From Candidatus Poseidoniaceae archaeon (GTDB taxonomy: Archaea; Thermoplasmatota; Poseidoniia; Poseidoniales; Poseidoniaceae), in the NCBI GenBank assembly GCA_965659685.1, contig CBFHXB010000009.1, positions 17,508-81,507 on the forward strand: a stretch of DNA of 64,000 nucleotides, in the 5' to 3' direction. Shown one piece after another: positions 10,708 to 39,888 of the stretch; position 1 is the first letter of the stretch, and the number at the start of each line of letters is the position of its first letter. Below the pieces are notes generated by a model. The model did no database searches and was not told the origin of the DNA. It worked only from the letters and a program-made list of their open reading frames with translations. Made by a program: the position numbers and the translations under genes.

Positions 10708-12825
10708 ATGAAGGTGATGGTCCGAGACCACCTCCGATGCTTTGACGGTGAACGGACGATTCGGGGTGTCGTGAGCGCCACGGAGGACCCCTTCATTCCC
10801 CCCGACGTGACCATCCCTGAGTTGACCGTTCGTGCGGTCGGAGTGGGCATCGTTCTCGGCGTCCTCATGACGGCAGCAAACGCATACTTGGGGCTCTATG
10901 CAGGGATGACGGTTTCCGCCAGCATCCCCGCCGCCGTGATGTCGATGATCATCCTTCGGTTGATGTTCAACGACGTGACCATCCTCGAGAACAACAGCGT
11001 CCAAACCATGGCCAGCGCCGGAGAAAGCTTGGCCGCGGGTGTCATCTTCACTGTGCCTGCCTTCCTTGTCGTTGGCCTCTGGACCGACATCAATTGGGGC
11101 ATCACCTTGGCCATCGCCTTGTTGGGTGGGTGGCTCGGGACCATGTTCACCATCGCCCTCAGGCGCTTGTTCATCGTCGAAGAAGCCCTGCCCTACCCGG
11201 AGGGTGTTGCGTGCCGCGAAGTCTTGGTCGCCGGTGAAGAGGGCGGTGATGGGATGGTCGCGATTCTGTACGCCCTCGGCATTGGGGCCCTGTACGGTTT
11301 CGTGGTGAAGGTCACGGCCTCCGTTCACCATGCCGTTGAAGGCGCCATCAATTTCCTCGGCACCCGACTCTATGCGGGTGCTGATCTGTCCGTCGCGCTG
11401 TTCTCGGTCGGTTTCATCGTCGGCCTGCGGATTGCTTCGTTCATCTTCCTGGGTGGTGTGATCGGGTTCGGCATCCTCACGCCCGTGTACGGTCTCATCA
11501 ATGGATGGCCGGAAGGTGACCTCGCAGCGGGTTTCACCTCCATTTTCCTCAGCCAAATCCGCTACATCGGGGTCGGCGCAATGGTGGTGGGAGGTGTCCA
11601 CACCCTTTGGACGATGAGGACCACCATCATCGAAGGCCTCTCTGGGGCGTTCAAGGCAGGTGACGGCGAAGCCGAACGCTTGTTGCGCACGGAACAAGAC
11701 ATTCCCCTGCGCTATGTTGCCATGGCGGTTGGTGTCTTGGTCATCCTGACCTTCTTGTTTTACTGGCAGACGACCGGTTCATTGGTGCTCGCGCTTGCAG
11801 GGGCCCTTTTCCTCGCCTTGGTGGCGTTCTTCTTCAGCGCGGTTGCCGGGTATATTGCCGGTGTGGTTGGTTCCTCCAATTCCCCGGTGTCAGGCATGAC
11901 GATCGCCACGCTGCTGTTCACCGTGTTGTTGGTCTGGGTGGTCGGTGATCTCATCCTCAACTTGGCCACCGAGGAGCTCATCCTTGCGACCCTGCTCATC
12001 GCAGCTGTGGTCGCTTCTTCGAGCGCCATTGCAGGAGACGTGATGCAGGACCTGAAGACAGGAAACATGGTCGGTGCAACGCCGTGGAGGCAACAGACCG
12101 CAGAAGTGGTCGGTGTGACGGTCGGAGCTTTGGTCATTGGACCGGTGCTGAGTTTGCTCCACAACGCCTTCAGAATTTCCGCCACGGCTTGCCTCGCCGA
12201 CCCGCTCCCGGGCGATCCCACCTGCTCCAGGGCTTTGTTTGCTCCACAAGCAGAGTTGATCGGGGCCATCGCACAGGGTGCCTTTGGTGGTTCGATCAAC
12301 ATCCAAATGGTCATGCTTGGGGTCCTCTTTGCCCTCGCCCTCATCCGGCTGAAAATGCCGGTCATGTCGGTCGCCATTGGCCTCTATTTGCCGCTCAAGC
12401 TCTCGGTCCCTATCATGCTCGGTGGCTTGATTGCAGCCACGATGGGGGGTGTCATCGTCCGCCGCATTGACGGGGATATGGAAGGGGAGCCGTCGGTCGA
12501 AGCCAAGAATGCCGTGGACACCATGCAAGCACGTGGCGTGCTCATTGGCGCCGGATACATCGCGGGAGAATCCCTCCTCGGCGTGCTGTTGGCCGTCATG
12601 ATCGTGCTTGACGTCGACTTGTCCGCCATGCTTGGCATCACGGCGTTGGGGGACCTTGCCTCGCTCTTGTTCTTCCTGTGGTTCGTGGGCGTCTTTGTTG
12701 CGCTCGTGTCGCAAACCATGCCACGAGGAATCACACCGGGCATGGTGGTCGCTGTGATCGTCGGGTCTGTGCAGCGCACGCTTCAACGCATGATTCCAAG
12801 CGTGTTGCGCCCTGACGAGTCCTGA
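10708..12825 (+). CDS. OPT-family oligopeptide transporter
   Basis: The conserved OPT N-terminus is ELTVRAVGVGIVLGVLMTAANAYLGLYAGMTVSASIPAAVMS, and the whole protein is polytopic. The track ORF (9808-12825) extends antisense into the ATPase, so I took the first in-frame ATG after 10680. Confidence 0.8.
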   Translation: MKVMVRDHLRCFDGERTIRGVVSATEDPFIPPDVTIPELTVRAVGVGIVLGVLMTAANAYLGLYAGMTVSASIPAAVMSMIILRLMFNDVTILENNSVQTMASAGESLAAGVIFTVPAFLVVGLWTDINWGITLAIALLGGWLGTMFTIALRRLFIVEEALPYPEGVACREVLVAGEEGGDGMVAILYALGIGALYGFVVKVTASVHHAVEGAINFLGTRLYAGADLSVALFSVGFIVGLRIASFIFLGGVIGFGILTPVYGLINGWPEGDLAAGFTSIFLSQIRYIGVGAMVVGGVHTLWTMRTTIIEGLSGAFKAGDGEAERLLRTEQDIPLRYVAMAVGVLVILTFLFYWQTTGSLVLALAGALFLALVAFFFSAVAGYIAGVVGSSNSPVSGMTIATLLFTVLLVWVVGDLILNLATEELILATLLIAAVVASSSAIAGDVMQDLKTGNMVGATPWRQQTAEVVGVTVGALVIGPVLSLLHNAFRISATACLADPLPGDPTCSRALFAPQAELIGAIAQGAFGGSINIQMVMLGVLFALALIRLKMPVMSVAIGLYLPLKLSVPIMLGGLIAATMGGVIVRRIDGDMEGEPSVEAKNAVDTMQARGVLIGAGYIAGESLLGVLLAVMIVLDVDLSAMLGITALGDLASLLFFLWFVGVFVALVSQTMPRGITPGMVVAVIVGSVQRTLQRMIPSVLRPDES

Positions 12826-12872
12826 CGTGGAATGTGAAAGGATGAAAGGCCCACCTCAAGGGTTCGCCGGCG

Positions 12873-13700
12873 ATGACCGCCGACATCGATGCACTCGAAG
12901 AGCAAGCCCGACGTTGTCGAGTTGAAATCGTCAAGATGGTTCACCGTGCCCAAGCGGGTCATCCCGGTGGTTCACTGTCGGAAATCGACCTCTTGGTCGG
13001 ACTGTACGGAAGCGTCCTGAACGTGCGACCCGACGAACCGGACTGGGAAGACAGGGACCGATTCGTGCTCTCGAAGGGCCACGCGTCCCCAGGCATGTAC
13101 GCCGTGCTTGCAGAGCATGGATTCATCCAGCATGAAGACCTGAAATCGTACCGCGTCAAAGGTGGCGTCTGCCAAGGGCACGTCGACATGAAGTGGTGCC
13201 CAGGCGTCGATTTTTCAGCAGGCTCCCTCGGCATGGGCCTCTCCTTTGGCCTCGGTTGCGCCCTTGCGGCCAGGCTCGACGGTTCCGACCGAAATGCATG
13301 GGTCATGCTTGGCGACGGTGAAGTGCAAGAAGGCAGCGTCTGGGAAGCGGTCATGGCCGCAAAGCACCACAACGTTGGCAACCTGAAGGCGATCGTTGAC
13401 GTCAACCGCATCCAAAACGACGACTTCTGCATCGAGCAAATGGAGTTGCATGACTTGGAAGCGACCTGGGCATCTTTCGGTTGGGAAGTGTTCAGCGTTG
13501 ACGGCCATGACATGAGTGCGGTCGTCGGGGCCTTGATGGCTGTTGCAGCCCACTCTGAAGGTCCCGCTGTGTTGCTCGCTCAAACCGTCAAGGGCAAGGG
13601 CGTCTCCTACATGGAAGACAACCCCTCCTTCCACGGAGCTGCGCCGAACGACGAGCAATTTGCTCAAGCCATGGTCGAACTCGGGGAGGTGGCGGCATGA
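12873..13700 (+). CDS. transketolase, N-terminal (TPP-binding) subunit
   Basis: 275 aa. Contains GHPGGSLS, SKGHASP and GDGEVQEG. There is a 4-nt overlap with the next gene. Confidence 0.9.
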   Translation: MTADIDALEEQARRCRVEIVKMVHRAQAGHPGGSLSEIDLLVGLYGSVLNVRPDEPDWEDRDRFVLSKGHASPGMYAVLAEHGFIQHEDLKSYRVKGGVCQGHVDMKWCPGVDFSAGSLGMGLSFGLGCALAARLDGSDRNAWVMLGDGEVQEGSVWEAVMAAKHHNVGNLKAIVDVNRIQNDDFCIEQMELHDLEATWASFGWEVFSVDGHDMSAVVGALMAVAAHSEGPAVLLAQTVKGKGVSYMEDNPSFHGAAPNDEQFAQAMVELGEVAA

Positions 13701-29648: not shown

Positions 29649-29963
29649 ATGGGCCAAGCCATGGTGGGCATCACCGACTCGGCCTGCACCGGGTGTGATC
29701 TCTGCATCCCCTTCTGTCCGTTCGAAGCCTTGCTTCCTCTGGCCGAGAACCCTGAGGGACGGAGCCATCCCAAACGTCCGGTGATCGTCGTTGAAGCCGC
29801 ATGCGTCGGCTGTTTGTCGTGCATTGGGTCCTGCCCGACCGGAGCCTTGCACGAGGTCCCGCTGCCGCCAAGCAACGAAACCTCTCCTCTGCTCGACCCT
29901 CCAGCACCTCCTGAAACAGAGCCTGTCCTCCGCTGGGGGCGCCGCGGAATCGGATGGGCCTGA
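29649..29963 (+). CDS. 2x[4Fe-4S] ferredoxin-like protein
   Basis: Carries two cluster motifs, CTGCDLCIPFCP and CVGCLSCIGSCP. The C-terminal tail is Pro-rich. Confidence 0.7.
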   Translation: MGQAMVGITDSACTGCDLCIPFCPFEALLPLAENPEGRSHPKRPVIVVEAACVGCLSCIGSCPTGALHEVPLPPSNETSPLLDPPAPPETEPVLRWGRRGIGWA

Positions 29964-29983
29964 AGCCTCAACCATTCCATTCG

Positions 29984-29991
29984 TTTATATA
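29984..29991 (+). promoter_or_regulatory. candidate archaeal TATA box for the Lhr gene
   Basis: tttatata at 29984-29991, 44 nt upstream of the ATG at 30035. It is one of very few A/T-only octamers in this GC-rich window. Confidence 0.4.
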
Positions 29992-30034
29992 CGTCACATC
30001 CACGAGGCCACGGCACGGGCGTCGTGAGAAAAAC

Positions 30035-33000
30035 ATGCCAGAAATCACTTACCTCGATTCGTTCGATGATACGGATGCCTTGGCGGCCCGTTTGAGCGAA
30101 CCTGTTCGACGTTGGTTCCTGGATACATTCCCAGATTTCACCGACCCGCAGAAAATGGCGATTCCGGCCATCATGGAAGGCGAACACCTCCTGCTCTGCA
30201 GCCCAACCGGTTCAGGAAAAACGCTCACAGCATTCCTGACGGTCATCGACGACCTGGTCCGAAAGGCACTCGATGGATCGCTCAAGGATCAGGTGTACTG
30301 CATCTACATCTCACCGATCAAAGCCCTCGCCAACGACATCGAGCGAAACCTGCTCGGGCCACTCGCTGAAATCAAAGAACGATACTTGCCGGACAGGGCC
30401 AAAGAAATTCGCGTCGGGTTGCGGACCGGAGACACCTCCCAATCCGACCGGCAGAAGATGCTCCGAAAGCCTCCGCACATCCTCATCACCACACCAGAAA
30501 GCATGGCCATCGCGGTTGGGTCCTCGAGGTTTCAACCGATCGTGTCCCGCGTCAAGTGGATGATCATCGACGAATTGCACAGTTTGGTCCCCACCAAGCG
30601 TGGCGTGCACCTGAGCCTGACCCTCTCTTTCCTCGACACCTTGCTGAAAGATCCCGTGCAGCGGATTGGAATTTCAGCAACGATGGAGCCACTGGACACG
30701 GTCGCGGAATACCTTGTGGCCAGCGACGACCGAGAATCGAGGGGCGAAGATCAGCGCATCATGGTCGCCAAAATTTCTGGGTCCAGGGAGCTCGACCTCG
30801 ACATTCTGATCACCCACCCACGTTTCGCCGACCGTTCTGTGGCGCAGACCCTGGAAGCCAACGTCGAGGCCATCGCGGACTTGATTTCGGCCCACACCAC
30901 GACCTTGGTCTTCGCCAACACGAGGAAAATGACCGAAACCCTCGTTCAACGCCTCAGGCCCTTCCTCGGTGAACTCATCGCCGGCCACCACGGATCGATG
31001 GACAAGAACATCCGACTCGAAGTCGAGCGGAAGTTGAAGTTGGGCCACCTCCGTGCTGTGGTGACCTCCTCATCGCTCGAAATGGGGATTGACATCGGTT
31101 CGGTTGATCTCGTCGTTCAGGTCGGTTCACCGGGAGACATCGCCACCGCACTCCAACGAATTGGGCGAGCAGGCCACCACGTCGGTGGAATTCCCCGCGC
31201 CCGTTTCTTGCCTTCTTCGGTGGACGATTTGCTCGAATTGGCGGCGTTGCAAGCCGCGATTCAAACCGGAGACATGGACCGTCTCTCGTTCCCGCAAAAC
31301 TGCCTTGATGTGGTGGCTCAATTCCTGATTGGCTTGGTCATCAACGAAGAACTCGACATCGACGAGGCCTACGAAATCGTGGTCAACGCGTGGAGTTACC
31401 GAAACTTCGCGTACGACGATTTCATCGAAGTCCTCGACCTGTTGGAAGACGAGCGTCGCATTTGGGTGGACTGGGAAGAGAACACCTTCGGAAAGCGTGG
31501 CTATTCCAGGATGATTTACTACACCAACATCGGGACCATCGCCCCTGACAATTCCTACCTGGTGTTCAACGCCGAAGGTTCCATCCTCGGAAAATTGTCC
31601 TCGTCCTTCGTTGCCAGCCTCCGCACCAGCGACGTCATCCTCCTCGGCGGTTCGACCTACCGAGTCAACAACATTCAGGGCACGCGGGTCAACGTCAGCA
31701 ACGTCACAGGATACCGTCCAACCGTGCCCTCTTGGTCCGGTGAAGCACGATCAAGGTCGGCTGAACTGTCGTCTTCCCTGCTCGACCTCATCGGCCGCTG
31801 TACGGTTGCTCTCCGACGAGAAGTCGATCCACGAACGGTCCTGAGCGAAGCCTATTCGTTGGGCCGGGATTCGGCCGAAATCATTGCACGTCATCTCGAG
31901 GAGCACGTGCTTACCACCTTCCAAGTGCCGGACAAAGACCGCATCTTGGTCGAACAAATTGTCGGCGGCGCTCATCCGACCTACCTCGTCACCACCTGCC
32001 GTGGCCGAGGGTTCAACACCGCCTTGGGTTACTTCATGGCGGGGCTGGCCGAGCGCGCGAGCATTCCGGTCATCGAGATGTCCTTCGACGAGAATGGACT
32101 TCTGCTTAAAACCGCACAAGACGTTGATCCCGGAGCCATGTACGAGGCCTTTGCTGCAGGCGACCACATGGAGGTCATCGAACGCTACATCATCGGCACC
32201 CAGATCTTCGCCAAGCGGTTCAGGGAAGTGGCCGGTCGGAGCCTGATCATCCCCAAGCGCATCGGTGCTGAGGAGATCAGCCCTCAACAATTCCAGCAGC
32301 GAGCCGACGCTTTGCTGAACCGACATCGCACCTTGGAGGGCTCCATCCTCATCCGCGAAGCGAAGAACGAGATCCTCTACGGCGACATTGACCTCGGTGG
32401 GTTGGAACAATTCCTCACGGCATGCCGCGAAGGGCAAGCACGCATCGTCCACATGCGAACGACGTTGCCGAGCAGGTTGGGCATGTCGCTCTACATGTCC
32501 GCGTTCGAAGACCTGATGTCGATGCGCACCCGCGCGTTCTTGGTCAAAGACATCGATCCTGCCATCCTTGAACGCCTCCTCGGCCGTCGTTCCCTCGCCA
32601 CCGAGATGACGAACGAACAAATCGAGGCGTACTACACGGACAAAGTTCCCGTCCCCACGGATGCGGACACCTTGTTGGCCCTCATGGAGCACGGTGGAGG
32701 TCTGGACCGCTCCTTTGACAATCCGTTGTACCGAGAGAAATTGAGCGGAATCGACCATGACGTGATTCGCGGTTGGGTGGAAGAACTCTGCACCACCGGA
32801 CTGATCACCAAAATCGAAGGGACCGGAATGGAGGAATTGGACGGCAAGTGGTTCAGTTCCTACATGGGTGAAATCCACGGCACCCTCGGTTGCTTGGCGG
32901 CCAACGGTGGCCGTGACGTGGAAGACTTGCTGACCTTGCATACGGCAGGTTTGACCTACCGGATGGCTTCCGCGTTCAACGGCACGAAGGTGAGTGATTG

Positions 33001-35323
33001 GAACGACATGGAACTTGGCGACCCGCAAGAGGCGCTCCGGGTCAAACTCATCGAAATGCTCGGTTCCGAAGGGCCTCAAACCGCCGACCAACTCGAGGAA
33101 CGCCTGCCGTTCCCACGTACGATGGTTGAGCGCACCATTCACCAACTCGAGACACGGAACGTCATCAGCATCGGCTTCTTCACGCAAACCGAGGAAGCCG
33201 AATTCATCCTCAAGGTGGACGAACACCGCATCACGGGTGGCGAGGAGGACGTCGTCGAGTACCGTTCAATCCAGAACATGATCCTCGACAAATCGTTCAC
33301 GATGTACGACGACGTCGACCAAGCCTTCGACAAGCACCTCCTCTTCCAGAAGCAGCAGGAACTGCTCTACCGCATCAACGATTTCAGGTTCAGCGATTGG
33401 AAGGACCTCCAACTCGACCGCGACATCGTCAACGGTCGTCTCCTTCACAACCGTCAGGGCTACACCACACGGCGCAACCTCCCCATGCTTCTCGGCCTGA
33501 AGCCAGAGCCCTACATCGGAGCGATAGAAGCCGACCTGCTGGACCGCATCCTGCCGGGCGAAGAACCCCAACGCTCAGAAATTGTGGCGATGTATCCCAA
33601 GGGCGAGGAACACAGACAACTGCAGCGCGACGTGAAAAACGGTCTCGCAAATTTGGAACGCCAATTGTTGGTCGCAAAGCAATTCGAAGAAGTCCCTGGA
33701 CGGCGCCGACGCTTGTCCTTCTACCACCGGGTTCACGAGGTCTACGACGGCCTTTCCTTTGAGGACGCCTTGTGCGAAGTGATTCACCGCATTGGTCCGA
33801 TCAAAGCCAACACCCTTCGCTTCTACGTCAGCAGAGCCTACGAAGAATTGGTCATCGCCCTCAAGGCGCTGGAAGCCGATGGGCGCATCAGCAGGGTGAC
33901 CACCCTCGTGCCGGAACCAGAGGACTTCTACTGCGCTCCGCAGGAAGTGGGCACGTTCCGTCGTGCCCGACGAGAGGACCGCGTGATGCGCATCCTGACC
34001 CAATCCGACCCTTACGTCTCGCGCTTCATATGGGAAGTCAGGGCCATGCTCGACCGAGGCTGGTACCTGCCGGTGTTCAAGGGAATCGATCCCGTGGGCA
34101 AGGTCCTGATGTTCAAGGTCAACGATTACCTCGAAGTGAAGGACATTCAGATTCCAGCCGCCTATCTGGAAGAGTTCTGTGAGTCCTTCGACGTCCTGCT
34201 TGAAAACCACGCTGAGCAATTGGTTGACGTTGCGGTCTTGAGCGGCATCAACGGACAACCGATCAGTGAAGTGGACCAAGTGTGGCGGGATGCGCTGAGC
34301 GGCATCGGTTTCAAGCTCGCAGGCGAGCGAATGATTCGTGGCGGAATCGTCGAAACACAGCCCAGAACCCTGGCCGATCGCGCCTTGTTCCACAAGCATC
34401 ACCTGCATCAATCGTCGAGGTTGGAAAACGAATTCCTCGCCCTCAAGCGCATTCGTGAGGTGCGCGATGACTTTGCGCTTCGTGGCCGAGCTGAGCTCTA
34501 TCGCGTGGACCTCAAGAGCATGGCGAGCGCCAACCGCCTCCACCAAGGCGTCAACCTTCGAGGGCACCAATCATGGGCTTCCTACGAGCATTTCCAGACC
34601 TTGTTGGCCATACGCGGCATCGAACCGGAGGAAGACCTCGCGGACGTGTTGGATTTCTTCTCAAACCACTCCGACCATGAGTTGTTCAAGGAACGCTATG
34701 CGTTGAGCCAATCCGAATTTCGAAAATTGGTGCAACCCTTGATTCGCACCGGTCACATCGTTCAAGATTTTAGAGGCGGATTCCGCACCGTCGCGGAGGA
34801 CCCGAGTTTGGACCGCTCCGTGCTGAGGAAAGAATACCTCCGGTCCCTTGTCGCCGATTTCCCGGTGATGACCATCAAGCAATTGCTGTCCTTGGCAGGG
34901 AGCCATTTCAAGCCAGAGGAAGTCAAAGCCATTTTGACGGAATTCGAGGAAGACGAGACGCTGATCAAGGGGTTCCTCATCGACGATCTGCACGAGGTCT
35001 GTTGGGGTCGAAAGGACCTGCTGGCGGACGCCAAGGAACTCCAACCCATGCGTGACTTCGTGCTTCCGCCTTCCGACCCAATCGCACCGTATTTCTCGGG
35101 CACCCTCAAGGAGAAGTTCGGGTTCGGAAGCGCCTATCTTGTGTTCAAGAACGGAGAACCTGCGGCGGCCTTCAAGGCCAACACCCGAAACCGTATCATC
35201 GAGGTCACGGATTACGAAGGACGTGAGGACGCATGGCGAATCGTCAAGGAATTCGCGTGGGAGCACCAAATGCCGCTCACGTCAGAAATACGCATCGGCG
35301 GGCGACGATTGAGCAGCTCTTGA
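30035..35323 (+). CDS. lhr: Lhr-type superfamily-2 DEAD/DEAH helicase with a very long C-terminal extension
   Basis: 1762 aa from the ATG at 30035. Helicase motifs are CSPTGSGKTL (I), IIDELHSL (II), ISATM (III), HHGSM, and VTSSSLEMGIDIG/RIGRAGH (V/VI). About 800 further residues follow the Lhr core. Confidence 0.85.
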   Translation: MPEITYLDSFDDTDALAARLSEPVRRWFLDTFPDFTDPQKMAIPAIMEGEHLLLCSPTGSGKTLTAFLTVIDDLVRKALDGSLKDQVYCIYISPIKALANDIERNLLGPLAEIKERYLPDRAKEIRVGLRTGDTSQSDRQKMLRKPPHILITTPESMAIAVGSSRFQPIVSRVKWMIIDELHSLVPTKRGVHLSLTLSFLDTLLKDPVQRIGISATMEPLDTVAEYLVASDDRESRGEDQRIMVAKISGSRELDLDILITHPRFADRSVAQTLEANVEAIADLISAHTTTLVFANTRKMTETLVQRLRPFLGELIAGHHGSMDKNIRLEVERKLKLGHLRAVVTSSSLEMGIDIGSVDLVVQVGSPGDIATALQRIGRAGHHVGGIPRARFLPSSVDDLLELAALQAAIQTGDMDRLSFPQNCLDVVAQFLIGLVINEELDIDEAYEIVVNAWSYRNFAYDDFIEVLDLLEDERRIWVDWEENTFGKRGYSRMIYYTNIGTIAPDNSYLVFNAEGSILGKLSSSFVASLRTSDVILLGGSTYRVNNIQGTRVNVSNVTGYRPTVPSWSGEARSRSAELSSSLLDLIGRCTVALRREVDPRTVLSEAYSLGRDSAEIIARHLEEHVLTTFQVPDKDRILVEQIVGGAHPTYLVTTCRGRGFNTALGYFMAGLAERASIPVIEMSFDENGLLLKTAQDVDPGAMYEAFAAGDHMEVIERYIIGTQIFAKRFREVAGRSLIIPKRIGAEEISPQQFQQRADALLNRHRTLEGSILIREAKNEILYGDIDLGGLEQFLTACREGQARIVHMRTTLPSRLGMSLYMSAFEDLMSMRTRAFLVKDIDPAILERLLGRRSLATEMTNEQIEAYYTDKVPVPTDADTLLALMEHGGGLDRSFDNPLYREKLSGIDHDVIRGWVEELCTTGLITKIEGTGMEELDGKWFSSYMGEIHGTLGCLAANGGRDVEDLLTLHTAGLTYRMASAFNGTKVSDWNDMELGDPQEALRVKLIEMLGSEGPQTADQLEERLPFPRTMVERTIHQLETRNVISIGFFTQTEEAEFILKVDEHRITGGEEDVVEYRSIQNMILDKSFTMYDDVDQAFDKHLLFQKQQELLYRINDFRFSDWKDLQLDRDIVNGRLLHNRQGYTTRRNLPMLLGLKPEPYIGAIEADLLDRILPGEEPQRSEIVAMYPKGEEHRQLQRDVKNGLANLERQLLVAKQFEEVPGRRRRLSFYHRVHEVYDGLSFEDALCEVIHRIGPIKANTLRFYVSRAYEELVIALKALEADGRISRVTTLVPEPEDFYCAPQEVGTFRRARREDRVMRILTQSDPYVSRFIWEVRAMLDRGWYLPVFKGIDPVGKVLMFKVNDYLEVKDIQIPAAYLEEFCESFDVLLENHAEQLVDVAVLSGINGQPISEVDQVWRDALSGIGFKLAGERMIRGGIVETQPRTLADRALFHKHHLHQSSRLENEFLALKRIREVRDDFALRGRAELYRVDLKSMASANRLHQGVNLRGHQSWASYEHFQTLLAIRGIEPEEDLADVLDFFSNHSDHELFKERYALSQSEFRKLVQPLIRTGHIVQDFRGGFRTVAEDPSLDRSVLRKEYLRSLVADFPVMTIKQLLSLAGSHFKPEEVKAILTEFEEDETLIKGFLIDDLHEVCWGRKDLLADAKELQPMRDFVLPPSDPIAPYFSGTLKEKFGFGSAYLVFKNGEPAAAFKANTRNRIIEVTDYEGREDAWRIVKEFAWEHQMPLTSEIRIGGRRLSSS

Positions 35324-35377: not shown

Positions 35378-38300
35378 ATGCAGCATGGCTCACATCGCGC
35401 ACTCGCCTTGGTCAGCTTGCTCGTCTTGTCCACCACGATGGCCGTGGTGGCACCGACCGCTGGAGCAGAATCTTCCTTGGACATTCAGGTCATTGACACC
35501 AAAGTCAACCCCGCGAACAACCACACATACCACCTCCTTTCCGCCTCGTCGTGGACCGAAGCCGCCCAAGCCGCGCGCGGATTGGAAGGTTTCCTCGTGA
35601 CTGTGGACGACGAAGCCGAGAATTCGTGGCTCCACGCCACGTGGGGGAACGATGGCAACGTGACCCGGCACCTCTGGACCGGTCTCAGCGACGCGGGCGA
35701 AGAAGGCGTCTTCCGTTGGCATGACGGCACGCCGTTCCTCCATCGACAATGGGGCGAGAACCAGCCCAGCATGACCGATGTTGAGGACTACGTTCACATC
35801 ACTGGACCCAACATGGGATCCATTGAACCAGGCGACTGGAACGATTTGGAAAACGACCCGCAGTATTTCCCGGTGTACGGCGTGGTGGAACTTGGCCCGG
35901 GTGCAGATTTTGCCCTCCGCTTTGATGGCGATGACGACCACGTCATCACGTCCGACGACACCTCCCTCCAAGCCCCCGCGGCCTCGGGTGAACTCACCAT
36001 TGAAGCAAGGATTCAGCCGGTTGAAACCGACGGAATCCACACCATCGTGATGTACGGCGACCACGGTTACGGCCTGTACCTCGACGACGGACGACTCGGT
36101 TACGCCTCTGAATACAGCCTCTCGAAGAACCCCCTGAGCGATGTCAACATGACCGTCCCGGAAGGCGTCTGGTCAACGGTCGCTGTCGCCGTGAACGCGA
36201 CCACCGGTGGCACCTTCTTCCTCAACGGGGAAGCCATCGGTTCGTTTGGAGCAGACCAAGCGGAGATCCCCGCAGGAGATTTCGGCTCAAACGATTGCTA
36301 CGAGGCCGGACTTTCGTGCGAGAACCTTGTGATTGGACGCCATGGAGCCGGTGCAGACCGTTACCACTTCAGCGGCATGATTGACGACGTGAGCATCGCC
36401 GCCATCGACGCACGCATCGCAGGGCCAAACGGCAGCATCGGCCTCGGTCCGTTCACAGAAACGTTGTCTGAATGGACCTTCGGGGAAGGTGAAGGTGACC
36501 AAACCTACGACCACATGAACCGCACGGGAGCCATCGAAGGCGCTGCATGGGTGATGCCTGACGGATCCATCGTTGCCCAGGCCATGGAACTCGAGAACGG
36601 TGACGAACTCAACCTGGACGGCATCAGCGCCGGAGACACCTTGCTGTTTTTCTCTGAACTGCCTGAGTACACCCGTAGCTTGAGCGTCCAAGCCTTTGCA
36701 TGGGCCGAAAACGAAGGCAAGGAAGATGGAGAAGCGGAATTCGTGTTGTACCACGACGTGGACCGTGTCCCTTCGGCCTGGTCCCACATGGACGAGGTCG
36801 AGGACTGGGGCTGGGGCGGCGTGTTTGCCTCCTACACGTGGCCAGAAGCCGGCGTGCATTGGTTTGCACTCCAAGCAACGTCCTCCCTGGATGAATTCAG
36901 CCTGTGGGCGGAGTGGGAAGTGGCCGAAGCCCCTCCGTCCTTGGACGAGATGATTGAACTCAAACACGGCATTCCCGTGGCCGACCAAGACCTCCAAGGC
37001 CAGCGGGAGAACGAATTTGGCGAATCCATCCAATATTACGTCAACGTGACCGAACCGCTCGCTGACCTTTCGGTCAAGACCTACGGTGGTGAAGGCAACG
37101 TGGACCTCGCCATCTCCTACGGCGGCCCGCCTGACCCCTTCGGCATCTGGGGTGAATGGGACATCGGGTTCCCAAGTGTGTCTGGTGATGGAGACGAGGT
37201 CGAATTCGAGGACTGGTCTGTCGGCATGGGGACGGAGGAAGAAGTCCACCTCTACAACCTGCAACCCGGGACCTACTACATCACGGCCTACACGTGGCGC
37301 ATGGCCCGCGATTACAGCATCGTGGCAGACCTGACGCCTCTGCCGACCAATGCGGAAGCGTCCGATGCCATCGAGCTCACGCCCGGGGTTCCCTACGGGC
37401 CATTCTCGGGCTACGAAGGACTGAACCAATATTTTTCCATCGACGTGCCGGAAGGCACCGAACGGCTCGAGATCAGCCTTGACGACGGCACCGGCGAAGC
37501 CGACCTGCACCTCGCTTACGAATCCACACCAACCTCGACGGTGTTCGATGAGCGAAGCGTGGCACCCGGACCGAACGACAGGGTGGCCTTCAACGATCCA
37601 ACACCTGGCACATGGATGATCCTCGTCCACACCGATCGCGTGTTCAGCGGCACCAGCATCCTTGCAGAATTCACCGACCGTTACGTGTGGGACTGGGACG
37701 GTGAGCCCATTCAGCTGTTCAACGGTGAGTCGATCGAAGGCATCGAAGCCCCCGAGGGCACAATGCTCGAATTCTATGGAATCCTCGAGCGCCCTGTTTC
37801 CCCGTTGGAGATCGACACCTGGGGTGAATCCGGCGAAGTTGAACTCGACGTGGAAGCCGAGCCTTACGACTGGGAGACCTTCTTTGACGACGGACCACGC
37901 GGTCGCCAATTTGACGGCGAAAGCTGGATGGAAGGCGAGGGCGTCGAGTGGACGTGGTCCATGAACACTGCAGCAAACGGCCGTTTTGACGTTACTGTGG
38001 ACGTCTTGGAAGACGTGAGCGGCTTTGGCATCGTGGCCTCTTGGACCGAATCGGAGCTCCCGCCCGTTGACGACGATGACGACGACGACGCAGGCAACGA
38101 AGAGCCGTTCGAACCAGAAGGGTGCCTCGAACGAACGAAGGCGTGGTTCGAATCCTTGGACCGGGACCGTGATGGCATCGTGACCTTGGACGAACATCGA
38201 CCTCATCCATCGACCGGCACCCCCGGTCAAGACCTTGACCTGAACGAAGACGAGCGTTTGCAGATGGGAGAGCTGGAAGTCGACCTGTGTTCGTGCAGCG

Positions 38301-38914
38301 AGGAATTCTGGTACATTTGGGAGCAAGCCGAAGACGTGGATGCCATCACCGTCGATGACCTGAGTGGCGTGGTGTACGTCAACGGCATCGACCTTGAAGC
38401 CATGGACCGTGACAACGACGGCGACATCGGCTTTGCTGAAGCCGAACGGCACAGCCTCGCGTGCACCACCACCTACGACCCTCTGGACCTCGATGGCGAC
38501 GGAGTCCCCAACGAGGAGGACGCGTTCCCAGAAGACCCCAAGGAAAGCGAGGATTCCGATGGCGACGGTGTTGGCGACAACGCCGACTTGGTGGCAGGCG
38601 TCAACGATTCGGTGGTGACTTACGGCGCAGTCGTTGCGGTGCTTGGATTGATTGTGCTGCTCTTGCTCACCATGTTGCGTCGAGGACCGGGCGGATCTCA
38701 AGCGGTCGACCCCTGGGCCGACATGGGCGACGAGAAGCAAATGCCTGAGTTGTTTGGACCATCACAGATGGCGACAGAGCACGAACCAAGGCTTGGGATG
38801 AACCCGCTTCAGGAGGAAGAAATTCCACCACGAGAAACGGAAATCCCCAGCATGACGGATCTCCCACCGCCCCTCGAAGAGGCCATTCCAAGTGGCCCCT
38901 TGGAATGGCGCTGA
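35378..38914 (+). CDS. large secreted type-I membrane protein: C-type-lectin-like, LamG-like, PPC-like, EF-hand and TSP3-like repeats, then a TM helix and cytoplasmic tail
   Basis: Signal peptide: ALALVSLLVLSTTMAVVAPTAGA. CTLD signature: WTEAAQAA..GFLVTV..EN.WL..LWTGLSD..EGVFRWHDG..W..NQPS..EDYVHI..GDWNDLEND. LamG-like: LRFDGDDDHV...LTIEARI...FSGMIDDVSI. PPC-like: QYYVNVTEPLADLSVKTYGGEGNVDLAISYG and QYFSIDVPEGTERLEISLDDGTGEADLHLAYE. EF loops: DRDRDGIVTLDE (38159-38194) and DRDNDGDIGFAE (38405-38440). TSP3-like: DLDGDGVPNEEDAFPEDPKESEDSDGDGVGDNAD. TM helix: AVVAVLGLIVLLLLTML followed by RR, then about 80 aa of tail. Confidence 0.8.
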   Translation: MQHGSHRALALVSLLVLSTTMAVVAPTAGAESSLDIQVIDTKVNPANNHTYHLLSASSWTEAAQAARGLEGFLVTVDDEAENSWLHATWGNDGNVTRHLWTGLSDAGEEGVFRWHDGTPFLHRQWGENQPSMTDVEDYVHITGPNMGSIEPGDWNDLENDPQYFPVYGVVELGPGADFALRFDGDDDHVITSDDTSLQAPAASGELTIEARIQPVETDGIHTIVMYGDHGYGLYLDDGRLGYASEYSLSKNPLSDVNMTVPEGVWSTVAVAVNATTGGTFFLNGEAIGSFGADQAEIPAGDFGSNDCYEAGLSCENLVIGRHGAGADRYHFSGMIDDVSIAAIDARIAGPNGSIGLGPFTETLSEWTFGEGEGDQTYDHMNRTGAIEGAAWVMPDGSIVAQAMELENGDELNLDGISAGDTLLFFSELPEYTRSLSVQAFAWAENEGKEDGEAEFVLYHDVDRVPSAWSHMDEVEDWGWGGVFASYTWPEAGVHWFALQATSSLDEFSLWAEWEVAEAPPSLDEMIELKHGIPVADQDLQGQRENEFGESIQYYVNVTEPLADLSVKTYGGEGNVDLAISYGGPPDPFGIWGEWDIGFPSVSGDGDEVEFEDWSVGMGTEEEVHLYNLQPGTYYITAYTWRMARDYSIVADLTPLPTNAEASDAIELTPGVPYGPFSGYEGLNQYFSIDVPEGTERLEISLDDGTGEADLHLAYESTPTSTVFDERSVAPGPNDRVAFNDPTPGTWMILVHTDRVFSGTSILAEFTDRYVWDWDGEPIQLFNGESIEGIEAPEGTMLEFYGILERPVSPLEIDTWGESGEVELDVEAEPYDWETFFDDGPRGRQFDGESWMEGEGVEWTWSMNTAANGRFDVTVDVLEDVSGFGIVASWTESELPPVDDDDDDDAGNEEPFEPEGCLERTKAWFESLDRDRDGIVTLDEHRPHPSTGTPGQDLDLNEDERLQMGELEVDLCSCSEEFWYIWEQAEDVDAITVDDLSGVVYVNGIDLEAMDRDNDGDIGFAEAERHSLACTTTYDPLDLDGDGVPNEEDAFPEDPKESEDSDGDGVGDNADLVAGVNDSVVTYGAVVAVLGLIVLLLLTMLRRGPGGSQAVDPWADMGDEKQMPELFGPSQMATEHEPRLGMNPLQEEEIPPRETEIPSMTDLPPPLEEAIPSGPLEWR

Positions 38915-38919
38915 GCCAC

Positions 38920-39888
38920 CTAGGACCCTTTTGGCCGGAGGGCCAAACGGATGGGTCGCATCAGCCGGAGGACGTGCGCGTGGAGTTCCGGCAGGATTCT
39001 GAACATCACCAAGGCCAAGCCGTACATCGCAAGAAGGGCGACCACACGGGCGGCATACGTGTGGGCAAATTCGAACATCCGTAATCCGAAGACTTCCACT
39101 TCGCCATGGATGGCGTGAAGCCACACGATGCCGGCGTTTCGGAAGATGTTCAGCACGTGGATCAAGGGTAGGGTCAACAGCAGGGCACGCAGGCGTCGCT
39201 TCCATGGCATGTCCAACACCGCGATGGCCCCCACGAAGACGATCATCGACTGGAGGGCCGTGCAAGCCAACACAATGTTGACCCCAACAGAGGAGCCGTC
39301 GGCCCACACCAAGTCGGTTTGAATCGGATATTCACCGAAGGGCTGGCTCCAAAACCAGACGTTACCTTCCCATTCTTGCCAGAGGACCTGACCCTCTGGC
39401 GTGCTGACGTAAGTCTCCCCAACGTGAACATCACCGGCGCCGGTGAACCTCAACATCAGTGCAGATTGAGAAGCGACGGCGACGATGGCCAAGCGGCTCA
39501 ACCACGGCACGTGGTAGGTCGCAAGGTAGGGGAGCCCCGCCAAAGCCACGGCACCCTTGAGCCAACGAAGCGCCGATTTGTCACGCACCTCCTCCACGTT
39601 CCACTCCCACCAAGCCACGCCCAAGGACGCCGGCAAGGCTGCGCTGAGCATCACGGTCAGCACGGGGTCTCCCTCCTGCCAATAGCCGTCTGCCATGAGG
39701 AAAAATCCGAAGCCGACCAAGGGCCAACCCACGAGGCTCGCGCGTTGCACGAGCGGGTGCTTCGACAGCGAGAGGCCCAAGAGCAGCATGCCCGAGGCAA
39801 GCAGTCCAATGGACTCCACGGACGCTCCCGCCATGGCCCCAAATGCTCGGCGTTGGTCTTCAACCCTCTGCGTTGAACCGCGCACCAT
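38920..39888 (-). CDS. archaeosortase/exosortase-family transpeptidase-like membrane protein
   Basis: Polytopic. It has a candidate catalytic Cys in IVLACTALQSMIVF and a conserved-type PLIHVLNIFRNAGIVWLH (N..R then H) about 35 aa downstream. I chose the ATG at 39888 because the 446-aa track ORF runs antisense into the next gene. Confidence 0.6.
   Translation of the reverse strand: MVRGSTQRVEDQRRAFGAMAGASVESIGLLASGMLLLGLSLSKHPLVQRASLVGWPLVGFGFFLMADGYWQEGDPVLTVMLSAALPASLGVAWWEWNVEEVRDKSALRWLKGAVALAGLPYLATYHVPWLSRLAIVAVASQSALMLRFTGAGDVHVGETYVSTPEGQVLWQEWEGNVWFWSQPFGEYPIQTDLVWADGSSVGVNIVLACTALQSMIVFVGAIAVLDMPWKRRLRALLLTLPLIHVLNIFRNAGIVWLHAIHGEVEVFGLRMFEFAHTYAARVVALLAMYGLALVMFRILPELHAHVLRLMRPIRLALRPKGS

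What the first reader, a model, noticed from the sequence alone, without database searches (positions are those of the whole stretch)
35378..38914. Eukaryote-like adhesion-receptor architecture in one 1178-aa archaeal surface protein
The domain order, read directly from the sequence, is:
1. Sec-type signal peptide.
2. A cysteine-free C-type-lectin-like domain that retains WTEA, WTGLSD, EGVFRWHDG, a QPS tripeptide at the position of the EPN/QPD sugar-specificity motif, and WND.
3. A LamG/concanavalin-like domain.
4. At least two PPC-like beta domains.
5. A D-rich linker (DDDDDDD).
6. Two canonical 12-residue EF-hand loops (DRDRDGIVTLDE, DRDNDGDIGFAE) plus a possible third (DLNEDERLQMGE).
7. TSP type-3-like Ca-binding repeats.
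8. One TM helix.
9. An ~80-aa Pro/Glu-rich cytoplasmic tail (PPPLEE).

A Ca-dependent lectin, EF-hand and TSP3 ectodomain with a signalling-style tail is a combination usually discussed for metazoan receptors. It points to Ca-regulated glycan or particle attachment.
Basis: partly seen in the sequence, partly recalled or inferred. Interest (0 to 1): 0.65.

Follow-up and report, generated by a model that had tools for sequence, protein, structure and literature searches.

The report
Conserved stalked surface lectin of MGII archaea
This gene encodes a membrane-anchored, calcium-binding surface protein with a sugar-binding-type head, found in the same genomic spot in at least 189 species of the abundant ocean archaea Poseidoniales; it is probably their attachment protein, and it is built from domains that many marine microbes use, not from an animal-style receptor.

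Summary
Profile and fold evidence support these parts, in order:
- signal peptide
- Cys-free C-type lectin domain (CTLD)
- LamG/pentraxin-like jelly-roll
- four (not two) homologous PPC-like beta-sandwiches
- acidic linker
- calmodulin-like module with three conserved EF-hand loops
- two TSP3-type repeats
- TM helix
- cytoplasmic tail

- Distribution: the protein is an order-wide, syntenic gene of Poseidoniales (Marine Group II).
- "Eukaryote-like": Cys-free CTLDs with EPN/QPD and WND motifs are widespread in marine prokaryote surface proteins, so this label misleads.
- Sugar site: it keeps 4 of 5 canonical Ca ligands, with QP[S/G/T] throughout the family. The structure model is unreliable exactly there.
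- Calcium: in seawater the Ca sites are more likely structural than regulatory.
- Tail: it is the least conserved part, and the target's clade lacks a 35-aa C-terminal module that most relatives carry.

Verdict: an uncharacterised, lineage-defining surface adhesin and a new member of a known kind. Interest is moderate.

The parts
35378..35467 (+). Sec-type signal peptide (aa 1-30; hydrophobic core 8-26, ...TAGA|E)
   Evidence: Hydropathy scan. There is no Cys, so no lipobox, and no twin-Arg. This is heuristic only, because no dedicated predictor was available.
35510..35902 (+). Cys-free C-type lectin-like domain (aa 45-175), with QPS129-131, E136 and WND154-156
   Evidence: Pfam Lectin_C 31.7 bits against 22.6. 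PDB phmmer and profile hits to mannose-receptor-family and DC-SIGN CRDs. hhalign maps QPS onto EPN/QPD, E-D-Y onto E-D-C, and WND onto WND. This is the most conserved domain, with mean column identity 0.82.
35903..36412 (+). LamG/pentraxin/ConA-like jelly-roll (aa ~176-345) with an invariant Cys307/Cys314 pair, followed by a variable linker to aa 365
   Evidence: Laminin_G_3 scores 45-48 bits in homologues P0005 and P0006. AF2 pLDDT is 75-94 here. Foldseek gives probability 1.0 and TMt 0.55-0.59 to pentraxins, agrin LG3 and neurexin LNS.
36473..38056 (+). Stalk of four tandem PPC-like beta-sandwich domains: D3 (aa 366-522), D4 (523-655), D5 (656-767) and D6 (768-893)
   Evidence: Pfam PPC 57.3 bits, two stretches, best at 684-751. 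Pairwise hhalign among the four gives probabilities of 72-97%, except D3-D4. Most differences from the 96%-identical homologue lie in D3, D4 and D6.
38057..38122 (+). Acidic/Pro-rich linker (aa 894-915, includes DDDDDDD898-904); composition conserved, sequence not
   Evidence: Homologues have PPxDPxEP-type linkers here.
38123..38473 (+). Calmodulin-like EF-hand module (aa 916-1032): loops 928-939, 954-965 and 1010-1021, plus a degenerate fourth helix-loop-helix; four invariant Cys (916, 971, 973, 1029)
   Evidence: Loop positions 1, 3, 5 and 12 are conserved in 121/121 sequences. The profile hits EF-hand proteins and calmodulin at 1e-8 to 1e-6. AF2 pLDDT is about 90 with helix-loop-helix geometry. 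Foldseek top hits are calmodulin and calcineurin B, probability 0.99. EF-hand_1 scores 25.8 bits against 25.4 on the isolated segment.
38474..38602 (+). Two TSP type-3-like Ca-binding repeats (aa 1033-1075: DLDGDGVPNEEDAFPEDP..DSDGDGVGDNAD)
   Evidence: Nearly invariant in 121 sequences. The profile hits the OmpA-family TSP3 repeats of 5wtl at 1.7e-8. Pfam TSP_3 scores 19.4 bits, below the 25 cutoff. AF2 confidence is low here.
38612..38680 (+). Single transmembrane helix (aa ~1079-1101) followed by RR
   Evidence: Hydropathy maximum of 2.81. In relatives it is preceded by the conserved motif [AP]SV.ND..[YW].
38681..38914 (+). Cytoplasmic tail (aa 1102-1178, Pro/Glu-rich) and stop codon
   Evidence: Least conserved part, 0.32. 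W1113 is invariant. The 35-aa C-terminal module of most relatives is missing. No Pfam hit.
38920..39834 (-). Archaeosortase A gene, convergent with the lectin gene (5-nt gap between the two stop codons)
   Evidence: TIGR04125 scores 105.9 bits against a cutoff of 75. The likely start gives a 304-aa protein, and Cys191, Arg232 and several His residues are invariant across 68 orthologues. It is the neighbour of the lectin gene in 69/69 testable loci.

Best explanation
The gene encodes a lineage-wide, type I membrane-anchored 'stalked lectin' adhesin of Poseidoniales (Marine Group II archaea).

How it most likely works:
1. Export. After Sec export, the N-terminal CTLD plus LamG head sits at the far end of the molecule.
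2. Stalk. A stalk of four PPC-like beta-sandwiches holds the head away from the cell.
3. Membrane-proximal Ca module. Next to the membrane there is a disulfide-stapled, calmodulin-like EF-hand module and two TSP3 repeats. Both bind Ca2+. In seawater these sites are permanently loaded, so they stiffen the base of the stalk and do not act as a switch.
4. Ligand binding. The head binds a conserved ligand, most plausibly a glycan on particles, algal exopolymers or other cells. Binding would go through a modified C-type site, QP[S/G/T]...E...WND.
5. Anchoring. A single TM helix anchors the protein. A cytoplasmic tail, which in most relatives ends in a conserved 35-aa module, probably contacts an intracellular partner.

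Shown: the architecture, its conservation, the synteny and the order-wide distribution. Inferred: surface display, Ca loading, glycan binding and the role of the tail.
For: - Architecture and domain identities.
- Topology: N-terminal signal peptide, a single TM near the C-terminus and an RR stop-transfer.
- Extracellular hallmarks: all six Cys are invariant and lie in ectodomain modules, and there are eight N-x-S/T sequons.
- Primary-site residues: Q129, P130, N155 and D156 are invariant, and E136 is present in 99/121 sequences. They map onto the EPN/QPD, E and WND positions of DC-SIGN and ASGPR.
- EF-loop and TSP3 Ca ligands are conserved in 121/121 sequences.
- The head (CTLD 0.82) and TSP3 (0.83) are the most conserved parts, while the stalk domains and tail vary. 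That pattern fits a fixed ligand-binding tip on a variable spacer.
- Distribution: over 300 full-length homologues named from Poseidoniaceae and Thalassarchaeaceae, 189 species representatives, and one conserved genomic position.
- Rinke et al. 2019 (PMC6461757) independently took 'thrombospondin' genes as evidence for adhesion in this order.
Against: - No binding, expression or localisation data exist for any member.
- The N/D of the EPN/QPD tripeptide, which is a Ca and sugar ligand, is S/G/T throughout the family. E136 is S or A in 21/121 sequences. Classical Ca-dependent sugar binding is therefore not assured.
- The AF2 model has pLDDT of 30-46 across the long-loop region (aa 102-162), so site geometry could not be checked.
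- Extreme conservation of the CTLD would also fit a protein-protein or self-assembly interface.
- Foldseek TM-scores for the EF module are low (0.25-0.33).
- Pfam TSP_3 is below its cutoff.
Confidence: 0.6

Rival explanations
1. The protein is the main envelope (S-layer-like or glycocalyx) protein of Poseidoniales, or the dedicated substrate of the adjacent archaeosortase. ArtA would recognise a non-canonical signal: the conserved [AP]SV.ND..[YW] motif, then the TM helix, then basic residues. It would cleave the ectodomain from its TM and tail and attach it to lipid.
For: - The ArtA gene is the immediate or near-immediate neighbour in 69/69 testable loci. In 59 the gap is <=60 nt. In six loci it lies directly upstream on the same strand with a 48-58 nt gap, because the lectin gene is inverted in place there and adjacency survives.
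- ArtA keeps its invariant Cys and Arg, so it is probably active.
- The segment just before the TM is highly conserved, and the motif/TM/basic layout resembles a tripartite sorting signal.
- It is a universal gene at one conserved locus, with no paralogue in the window or the fetched loci, as expected of an envelope protein.
- Dedicated sortase-substrate pairs are typically adjacent (own knowledge of Haft et al. 2012).
Against: - There is no PGF motif and no TIGR04126 hit, even at E<=10, on isolated C-terminal pieces.
- The TM is not C-terminal. It is followed by a 76-190 aa tail that carries conserved elements in most relatives, which would be pointless if it were cleaved off.
- The whole block ProRS-Lhr-lectin-ArtA-HAD-TiaS-ADSL is equally conserved, so adjacency may be plain synteny.
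- The domain set is that of adhesins. The Pfam S-layer hit is insignificant (E 0.18).
Confidence: 0.15
2. This is the first reader's reading: a Ca-regulated signalling receptor. Ligand or Ca2+ binding to the ectodomain would be transmitted through the TM helix to a signalling-type cytoplasmic tail.
For: - It has type I topology with a real cytoplasmic tail.
- W1113 next to the membrane is invariant.
- Most relatives carry a conserved 35-aa C-terminal module with invariant G, E, W, R and W, which suggests a cytoplasmic partner.
- The EF-hand module is calmodulin-like.
Against: - The tail has no recognisable signalling domain.
- It is the least conserved region, and the target's clade has lost the module.
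- No kinase, response regulator or similar gene is in the conserved neighbourhood.
- Extracellular EF-hands in about 10 mM Ca seawater would be saturated (established knowledge plus inference).
Confidence: 0.1
3. The protein is mainly a target or decoy in virus-host interactions. It would be a virus receptor on the cell surface, and its stalk would evolve quickly under viral pressure. Adhesion to particles would be secondary.
For: - 16 of 83 contigs end at, or within 150 nt of, the end of their lectin ORF fragment, most of them truncated fragments. That is typical of strain-variable surface genes.
- Differences from the 96%-identical homologue concentrate in D3, D4, D6 and the tail.
- One clade carries large low-complexity inserts.
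Against: - No relative turned up in deposited phage genomes, apart from an unrelated Flavobacterium-phage CTLD, or in IMG/VR.
- The distal head, the part a virus would most likely bind, is the most conserved part.
- Contig breaks were not compared with a background rate.
Confidence: 0.1

Closest known systems
Uncharacterised giant surface proteins of marine prokaryotes with Cys-free CTLDs (e.g. Nitrosopumilus QMU54492.1 with 7 CTLDs, Verrucomicrobiales MCP5528023.1 'pre-peptidase C-terminal domain-containing protein', Winogradskyella WP_422108066.1)
   Same: They have disulfide-free CTLDs at 37-48% identity over the whole domain, with EPN/QPD-type and WND motifs. They are often combined with PPC and other beta-sandwich domains.
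   Different: Those proteins carry tandem CTLD arrays and other architectures. This family has one CTLD, a fixed CTLD-LamG-4xPPC-EF-TSP3-TM-tail order, a QP[S/G/T] tripeptide, and order-wide synteny. None of these proteins has been characterised experimentally, as far as I could find.
Animal type I CTLD receptors (mannose receptor family such as PLA2R and DEC-205; DC-SIGN; selectins)
   Same: They are the best solved-structure matches for the CTLD. They also share type I membrane topology with the CTLD at the distal end.
   Different: This protein has no CTLD disulfides. The tripeptide is QPS, not EPN/QPD, and there is an 8-residue insertion between beta3 and beta4. The rest of the architecture is unrelated, and there is no evidence of common descent for the whole protein.
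Bacterial OmpA-family proteins with thrombospondin type 3 repeats (PDB 5wtl), and thrombospondin/COMP
   Same: They share the D-x-D-G-D-G-x-x-D-x-x-D Ca-binding repeats. The family profile matches the 5wtl repeats at 1.7e-8.
   Different: This protein has only two repeats, placed just outside the membrane. Pfam TSP_3 is below its cutoff. There is no OmpA domain and no thrombospondin C-terminal domain.
Extracellular EF-hand modules such as SPARC/BM-40 (own knowledge), and calmodulin-type four-EF-hand domains
   Same: All have helix-loop-helix Ca sites. The module's length and fold resemble calmodulin. The invariant Cys residues suggest disulfide stapling like the SPARC EC domain, and one homologue gives a weak SPARC_Ca_bdg hit (E 0.0076).
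   Different: Here the module is embedded in a prokaryotic surface protein. The third EF-hand of the four is degenerate. TM-scores to calmodulin are only 0.25-0.33.
Ca-stiffened long bacterial adhesins, e.g. the Marinomonas primoryensis ice-binding adhesin (own knowledge)
   Same: The working principle matches: a ligand/sugar-binding head on a Ca-dependent repetitive beta-sandwich stalk, in a marine or cold-water microbe.
   Different: The domain families are different. That adhesin is exported by type I secretion and held in the outer membrane. This protein is Sec-exported and held by a TM helix in an archaeal membrane.
ArtA substrates with PGF-CTERM, e.g. the Haloferax volcanii S-layer glycoprotein (own knowledge; Haft et al. 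2012; Abdul Halim et al. 2013)
   Same: Both are large secreted glycoprotein-type surface proteins with a C-proximal TM helix followed by basic residues. This gene also lies next to an ArtA gene.
   Different: This protein has no PGF motif and no TIGR04126 match. A long cytoplasmic tail follows the TM helix.

Membership tests
C-type lectin-like domain (Pfam PF00059, CTLD fold) | Profile HMM score above the curated cutoff | tested here: met
   31.7 bits against 22.6. Homologues score 32-41 bits. The family profile hits CRDs in PDB at about 1e-10.
C-type lectin-like domain (Pfam PF00059, CTLD fold) | Signature WIGL-type and WND motifs and the hydrophobic-core Trp residues | tested here: met
   W59, W100-T-G-L, W114, W125 and W154-N-D are invariant in 120/121 sequences.
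C-type lectin-like domain (Pfam PF00059, CTLD fold) | Two conserved disulfides (C1-C4 and C2-C3) | tested here: not met
   There is no Cys in aa 45-175. Y138 aligns with the 'EDC' Cys. The same holds for 80 of 145 top CTLD relatives, so this is a recognisable Cys-free subclass.
Ca-dependent carbohydrate-binding C-type lectins (CRDs proper) | Five primary-site Ca/sugar ligands: E/Q and N/D of EPN/QPD, a downstream E, and N and D of WND | tested here: inconclusive
   Q129, E136 (99/121), N155 and D156 are present. The N/D position is S/G/T in all 120 homologues aligned there. So 4 of 5 ligands are kept.
Ca-dependent carbohydrate-binding C-type lectins (CRDs proper) | Long-loop region folded to form the Ca/sugar site | tested here: inconclusive
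   AF2 pLDDT is 30-46 over aa 102-162, so the model is not usable there.
Ca-dependent carbohydrate-binding C-type lectins (CRDs proper) | Ca-dependent sugar binding | not testable with these tools
   This needs a glycan array or ITC on recombinant protein.
EF-hand | 12-residue loop with oxygen ligands at positions 1, 3, 5 and 12 (Glu at 12) and a hydrophobic residue at 8 | tested here: met
   Three loops (928-939, 954-965, 1010-1021) are conserved at these positions in 121/121 sequences. The strict PROSITE PS00018 regex fails in the target; by my own reading of the loops it fails only at position 13.
EF-hand | Helix-loop-helix geometry, paired | tested here: met
   In the AF2 model, helices flank all three loops at pLDDT of about 90. 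Foldseek top hits are calmodulin and calcineurin B, probability 0.99, with low TM-scores.
EF-hand | Pfam score above cutoff | tested here: inconclusive
   The whole protein scores 10-12 bits, below cutoff. The isolated segment gives EF-hand_1 25.8 against 25.4. Homologue P0013 scores 38.8-39.8 bits.
Thrombospondin type 3 repeat (PF02412) | Profile score above cutoff | tested here: not met
   19.4 bits against 25, two stretches, E 8e-4 on the isolated segment.
Thrombospondin type 3 repeat (PF02412) | D-x-D-x-D-G-x-x-D-x-x-D Ca-binding motif in tandem | tested here: met
   DLDGDGVPNEED and DSDGDGVGDNAD are invariant at the Asp/Gly positions. The profile matches the 5wtl TSP3 repeats at 1.7e-8.
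LamG / concanavalin A-like (PF13385 Laminin_G_3) | Profile score above cutoff and jelly-roll fold | tested here: met
   Pfam does not list it for the target. Homologues at 61-63% identity score 45-48 bits against 27.6. Foldseek gives probability 1.0 and TMt 0.55-0.59 to pentraxin, agrin LG3 and neurexin LNS.
PPC (bacterial pre-peptidase C-terminal domain, PF04151) | Profile score above cutoff | tested here: met
   57.3 bits against 25.9, two stretches. Two further domains are related by hhalign.
ArtA substrate (PGF-CTERM, TIGR04126) | PGF signature motif immediately before the TM helix | tested here: not met
   No PGF in the target or any homologue tail. No TIGR04126 hit at E<=10.
ArtA substrate (PGF-CTERM, TIGR04126) | Tripartite signal at the extreme C-terminus | tested here: not met
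   The TM helix is followed by a tail of 76-190 aa.
ArtA substrate (PGF-CTERM, TIGR04126) | Co-occurrence with an archaeosortase A gene | tested here: met
   ArtA is adjacent in 69/69 testable loci. TIGR04125 scores 84-106 bits against 75 in the window, L001 and L003; the split L002 copy scores 74.3.
Metazoan adhesion receptors (selectin, mannose receptor, thrombospondin) as a protein family | Shared overall architecture or orthology, not just shared domain types | tested here: not met
   Only the CTLD aligns with animal proteins. Prokaryotic Cys-free CTLDs match it at higher identity (37-48%) than the animal-type arrays (about 30%).

The most novel reading that the evidence does not exclude
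The Poseidoniales archaeosortase and this protein form a dedicated enzyme-substrate pair that uses a new, non-PGF and non-terminal sorting signal ([AP]SV.ND..[YW], then TM, then basic residues). Under this reading the protein is the principal envelope glycoprotein of the most abundant planktonic archaea. Cleavage would both lipid-anchor the lectin ectodomain and release a TM-plus-tail fragment carrying the conserved cytoplasmic module, which would be an archaeal analogue of regulated receptor processing.
Probability: 0.1. Interest if true: 0.75.

Novelty: new member of a known kind. Interest (0 to 1): 0.42.

Why it matters
Poseidoniales (Marine Group II) are the most abundant archaea in the surface ocean and have never been cultured. 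Their envelope, their means of attaching to particles and their virus receptors are all unknown. This family gives a concrete, testable candidate for how they touch the outside world. It is found in at least 189 species representatives, sits in one fixed genomic position, and has a highly conserved lectin-type head. The recombinant head could be screened against marine glycans. The protein could serve as a lineage-specific surface marker for labelling or sorting. Its invariable pairing with archaeosortase A raises a checkable question about archaeal surface-protein processing. It also shows that disulfide-free C-type lectin domains are common in marine prokaryotes, a point that is not widely appreciated. 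The finding is not evidence of a eukaryote-like receptor in archaea.

Tried and rejected
1. Structure of the CTLD Ca/sugar site. The AF2 run used a 19-sequence in-family alignment and gave pLDDT of 30-46 exactly there. Both prediction jobs are spent, so this stays unresolved.

2. PGF-CTERM membership. There is no motif and no TIGR04126 hit on isolated C-terminal pieces. No PGF-CTERM ORF exists in the 64-kb window. Rejected as a canonical ArtA substrate.

3. ArtA outgroup neighbourhoods. The ArtA homologue search returned only Poseidoniales proteins, so I could not compare what lies next to ArtA in other lineages.

4. Viral connection, prompted by the report of Laminin_G_3 genes in magroviruses. 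tblastn against deposited phages found only a Flavobacterium-phage CTLD at 34% identity. The IMG/VR scan found nothing. Rejected.

5. DGR-type diversified C-type lectin fold. Considered and rejected, because the CTLD is the most conserved domain rather than a hypervariable one.

6. The cytoplasmic tails and the conserved 35-aa C-terminal module. No Pfam or PDB match.

7. Paralogues or other proteins sharing the anchor, CTLD or PPC modules. None in the window or in about 1.4 Mb of related loci.

8. Literature. Searches found no description of this family. The only related statement is a KO-level mention of 'thrombospondin genes' in Rinke et al. 2019.

9. The sigma-70 promoter and intrinsic-terminator scan is uninformative for an archaeon.

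10. The weak Pfam S-layer hit (E 0.18) and the NCBIfam MtsD and Omp28 hits are not significant.

Full report
**1. What is at the coordinates**

The mechanical ORF list contains a 1178-aa ORF at 35378..38914 on the + strand. The protein has a hydrophobic N-terminus, one strong hydrophobic helix at about 1079-1101 followed by RR, and a tail of about 77 residues rich in Pro and Glu. It is very acidic (20% Asp+Glu, 0.7% Lys). It has only six cysteines, none of them in residues 45-175.

**2. Which organism**

Homologues are named by their sources as proteins of Candidatus Poseidonia, Poseidoniaceae, Thalassarchaeaceae and Poseidoniales. The neighbouring genes are:
- an Lhr-type helicase
- archaeosortase A
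- a GmhB-like HAD phosphatase
- the archaeal tRNA-agmatidine synthetase TiaS
- prolyl-tRNA synthetase
- adenylosuccinate lyase

**3. Domain by domain**

*CTLD.*
- Pfam Lectin_C scores 31.7 bits against a cutoff of 22.6.
- phmmer against PDB gives mannose-receptor-family and DC-SIGN CRDs.
- A 19-sequence family profile raises these to 3e-45 for PLA2R and about 1e-10 for the single CRDs of CL-P1, CEL-I and DC-SIGN.

*LamG.*
- Pfam does not call it in the target. It does in homologues P0006 and P0005 (48 and 45 bits against 27.6).
- The AF2 model of this part (pLDDT 75-94) matches pentraxins, agrin LG3, neurexin LNS, CBM40 and the botulinum-toxin HCN jelly-roll, with probability 1.0 and target-normalised TM of 0.55-0.59.

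*PPC.*
- Pfam gives 57.3 bits in two stretches.
- Local hhalign of sub-alignments shows that four consecutive segments (366-522, 523-655, 656-767, 768-893) are homologous to one another, with probabilities of 72-97% for five of six pairs. None resembles the LamG domain.
- The stalk therefore has four PPC-like beta-sandwiches, not 'at least two'.

*EF-hands.*
- On the whole protein Pfam is below threshold.
- On the isolated segment EF-hand_1 just passes, 25.8 against 25.4.
- Homologues pass clearly, for example P0013 at 38.8-39.8 bits.
- The family profile of aa 893-1080 hits calmodulin-type proteins at 1e-8 to 1e-6.
- AF2 folds aa 913-1032 at a pLDDT of about 90, with helices flanking each of the three loops and a fourth, degenerate helix-loop-helix.
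- All top Foldseek hits are calmodulin, calcineurin B or CHP (probability 0.99, E about 3e-3, TM only 0.25-0.33).

*TSP3.*
- The same profile hits the TSP3 repeats of a bacterial OmpA-family protein (5wtl, 1.7e-8).
- Pfam TSP_3 itself is below threshold, 19.4 against 25.

**4. Conservation**

I aligned the target with 120 homologues at 43-96% identity.
- The three EF loops keep D at position 1, D/N at positions 3 and 5, a hydrophobic residue at 8, and Glu at 12 in all 121 sequences.
- The TSP3 Asp and Gly positions are invariant.
- All six Cys are invariant.
- Mean column identity by part: CTLD 0.82, TSP3 0.83, PPC D5 0.74, LamG and the other PPC domains about 0.6, EF module 0.51, tail 0.32.

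That test is therefore not met.

**5. The sugar site**

- QPS129-131 aligns with EPN and QPD.
- E136-D137-Y138 aligns with E-D-C.
- WND154-156 aligns with WND.
- There is an 8-residue insertion between these last two elements.

Q129, P130, N155 and D156 are invariant, and E136 is present in 99/121 sequences. The third tripeptide residue is S (75), G (24) or T (21), and never N or D. Four of the five canonical ligands are therefore kept.

The structure model cannot settle whether the site is functional, because pLDDT is 30-46 over aa 102-162.

**6. Is it 'eukaryote-like'?**

I ran an exhaustive phmmer search with the CTLD alone against 1.84 billion cluster representatives.
- It finds 7,073 proteins at E<=1e-3 and 1,941 at E<=1e-10.
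- Of the top 145 with full-length CTLD matches, 80 average fewer than one Cys per CTLD. These mostly carry EPN, QPD, EPS, QPN or QPS together with WND. The other 65 are the Cys-rich animal type.
- Labelled Cys-free examples are a seven-CTLD protein of a Nitrosopumilus MAG, a 4,706-aa Verrucomicrobiales 'pre-peptidase C-terminal domain-containing protein', and a Winogradskyella protein. The one many-copy, roughly 30%-identity hit that I checked is a mannose-receptor-like protein of a hemichordate.

The domain set is therefore a common marine-prokaryote surface toolkit. The closest CTLD relatives are prokaryotic.

**7. Distribution and synteny**

A pattern-plus-tblastn scan of one genome per GTDB species found 189 genomes with a relative. 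The 80 loci kept are all Poseidoniales or 'Euryarchaeota' MAGs, apart from three bins with bacterial names that carry the same archaeal block and are probably mis-binned.

In these loci and three more, the order ProRS, Lhr, lectin, ArtA, HAD, TiaS, ADSL is almost invariant.

The archaeosortase A gene scores 105.9 bits on TIGR04125 in the window against a cutoff of 75, and 74-92 bits in other loci. It borders the lectin gene in 69 of 69 loci that have enough sequence to judge:
- 63 are convergent.
- 6 have ArtA directly upstream on the same strand, 48-58 nt away, because the lectin gene is inverted in place.
- 10 have one inserted gene between the two.

The enzyme keeps an invariant Cys191 and Arg232.

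**8. Is it an ArtA substrate?**

There is no PGF motif in any family member and no TIGR04126 hit at E<=10. The TM helix is followed by 76-190 residues, not by the C-terminus.

The segment before the TM is highly conserved ([AP]SV.ND..[YW]), and the motif/TM/basic layout is reminiscent of a sorting signal. Because the whole block is syntenic, adjacency alone does not prove linkage.

I keep this as a rival and as the basis of the novel case, at low probability.

**9. The tail**

In the target it is Pro/Glu-rich and poorly conserved. Across the family there is an invariant juxtamembrane Trp (W1113). Most members also end in a module of about 35 residues, LMGM..DG.E.IEYP.GSG..W.R...D..W, with invariant G, G, E, E, W, R and W. 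That module has no Pfam or PDB match. A second clade ends in ..EVLDDLFD. The target's own clade retains only ..PPPLEEAIPSGPLEWR.

A cytoplasmic partner is plausible for the family. Nothing identifies the tail as a signalling domain.

**10. Mechanism**

The best-supported picture is a Sec-exported, TM-anchored adhesin:
- a conserved CTLD-LamG head
- a four-domain beta-sandwich stalk
- a membrane-proximal Ca2+-binding base, made of a disulfide-stapled four-EF-hand module plus two TSP3 repeats

Seawater holds about 10 mM Ca2+ and EF-hand affinities are typically micromolar (established knowledge). These sites should therefore be saturated and structural (inference).

The head most likely binds a glycan. 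Its very high conservation could equally reflect a protein partner or self-association.

Strain-level variation seems to concentrate in the stalk. The 51 differences from the 96% homologue fall mostly in D3, D4, D6 and the tail. Also, 16 of 83 contigs end at, or within 150 nt of, the end of their lectin ORF fragment, most of them truncated fragments. I did not compare that figure with a background rate.

**11. Novelty and literature**

Full-text searches found no paper describing this family. Rinke et al. 2019 mention widespread 'thrombospondin' genes in Poseidoniales as support for adhesion. That KO-level label could include this family through its TSP3 repeats, which is my inference and was not checked.

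Public annotation already calls members 'lectin-like protein' or 'pre-peptidase C-terminal domain-containing protein'. All the domains are known types, and similar mosaics occur in other marine prokaryotes.

What is new:
- the fixed architecture
- the type I anchor with a conserved cytoplasmic end
- the order-wide conservation at one genomic position
- the constant pairing with ArtA

I therefore file it as a new member of a known kind, with moderate interest. Interest would rise markedly only if the ArtA link proved functional.

Noticed in passing
window 38920..39834 (-): This is an archaeosortase A gene (TIGR04125 105.9 bits against 75), convergent with the lectin gene. The mechanical ORF runs to 40260 and overlaps the HAD gene. 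The likely start at 39834 gives a 304-aa protein. Cys191, Arg232 and several His residues are invariant in 68 orthologues.
   Followed up: yes
L009, L012-L014, L020, L022, L025, L036, L044, L045, L048, L051, L061, L062, L080, L083: 16 of 83 contigs end at, or within 150 nt of, the end of their lectin ORF fragment; the fragments are 350-1242 aa, and most are truncated. This suggests an assembly-break hotspot caused by strain-level variation. I did not compare it with a background rate.
   Followed up: partly
L005, L069, L080: Three MAGs are labelled Salinimicrobium, Salipiger bermudensis and Rhodobiaceae. L005 and L069 carry the archaeal ProRS-Lhr-lectin-ArtA-TiaS block, and L080 carries Lhr plus the lectin gene. 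These are almost certainly mis-binned Poseidoniales contigs.
   Followed up: no
L009 and L011 (isolate SP212): The same bin carries the gene on two different contigs, at about 87% identity to the query. This is either strain heterogeneity in the bin or a duplication.
   Followed up: no
L001 10712..11851 and nine further loci (L021, L023, L029, L050, L067, L068, L070, L072, L077): A 1.1-2.2 kb gap separates the lectin gene from ArtA. In L001 an Old-Yellow-Enzyme-type Oxidored_FMN gene fills it. I did not inspect the other nine loci.
   Followed up: no
Homologues P0018, P0024, P0028 and P0029 (1368-1479 aa): One clade has a long Asn/Ser/Gly/Thr-rich low-complexity insertion after the LamG domain. 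In the loci checked for this clade (L003, L013-L017) the lectin gene is inverted, so that ArtA lies directly upstream on the same strand.
   Followed up: partly
C-termini of most homologues (alignment A3); absent from window 38681..38911: There is an uncharacterised conserved cytoplasmic module of about 35 aa, LMGM..DG.E.IEYP.GSG..W.R...D..W, with no Pfam or PDB match. A second clade ends in ..EVLDDLFD. The target's clade has lost the module.
   Followed up: partly
Representative-library hits P0121-P0269: Disulfide-free CTLDs with canonical EPN/QPD and WND motifs are widespread, often in tandem arrays of 2-9 copies. Examples come from Nitrosopumilus, Verrucomicrobiales and Winogradskyella. I found no literature describing this class.
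   Followed up: partly
L001 1099..6382; L002 10665..11592 and 12298..13487: Lhr, ArtA and TiaS are split into two ORFs in two long 'pilon'-polished contigs. These are probably residual indel errors, not pseudogenes.
   Followed up: no
window 29954..35323 (+): The Lhr-type helicase is unusually long at 1789 aa, with about 900 residues beyond the DEAD_assoc domain. A faint AlkZ-like hit is recorded for the L001 orthologue.
   Followed up: no
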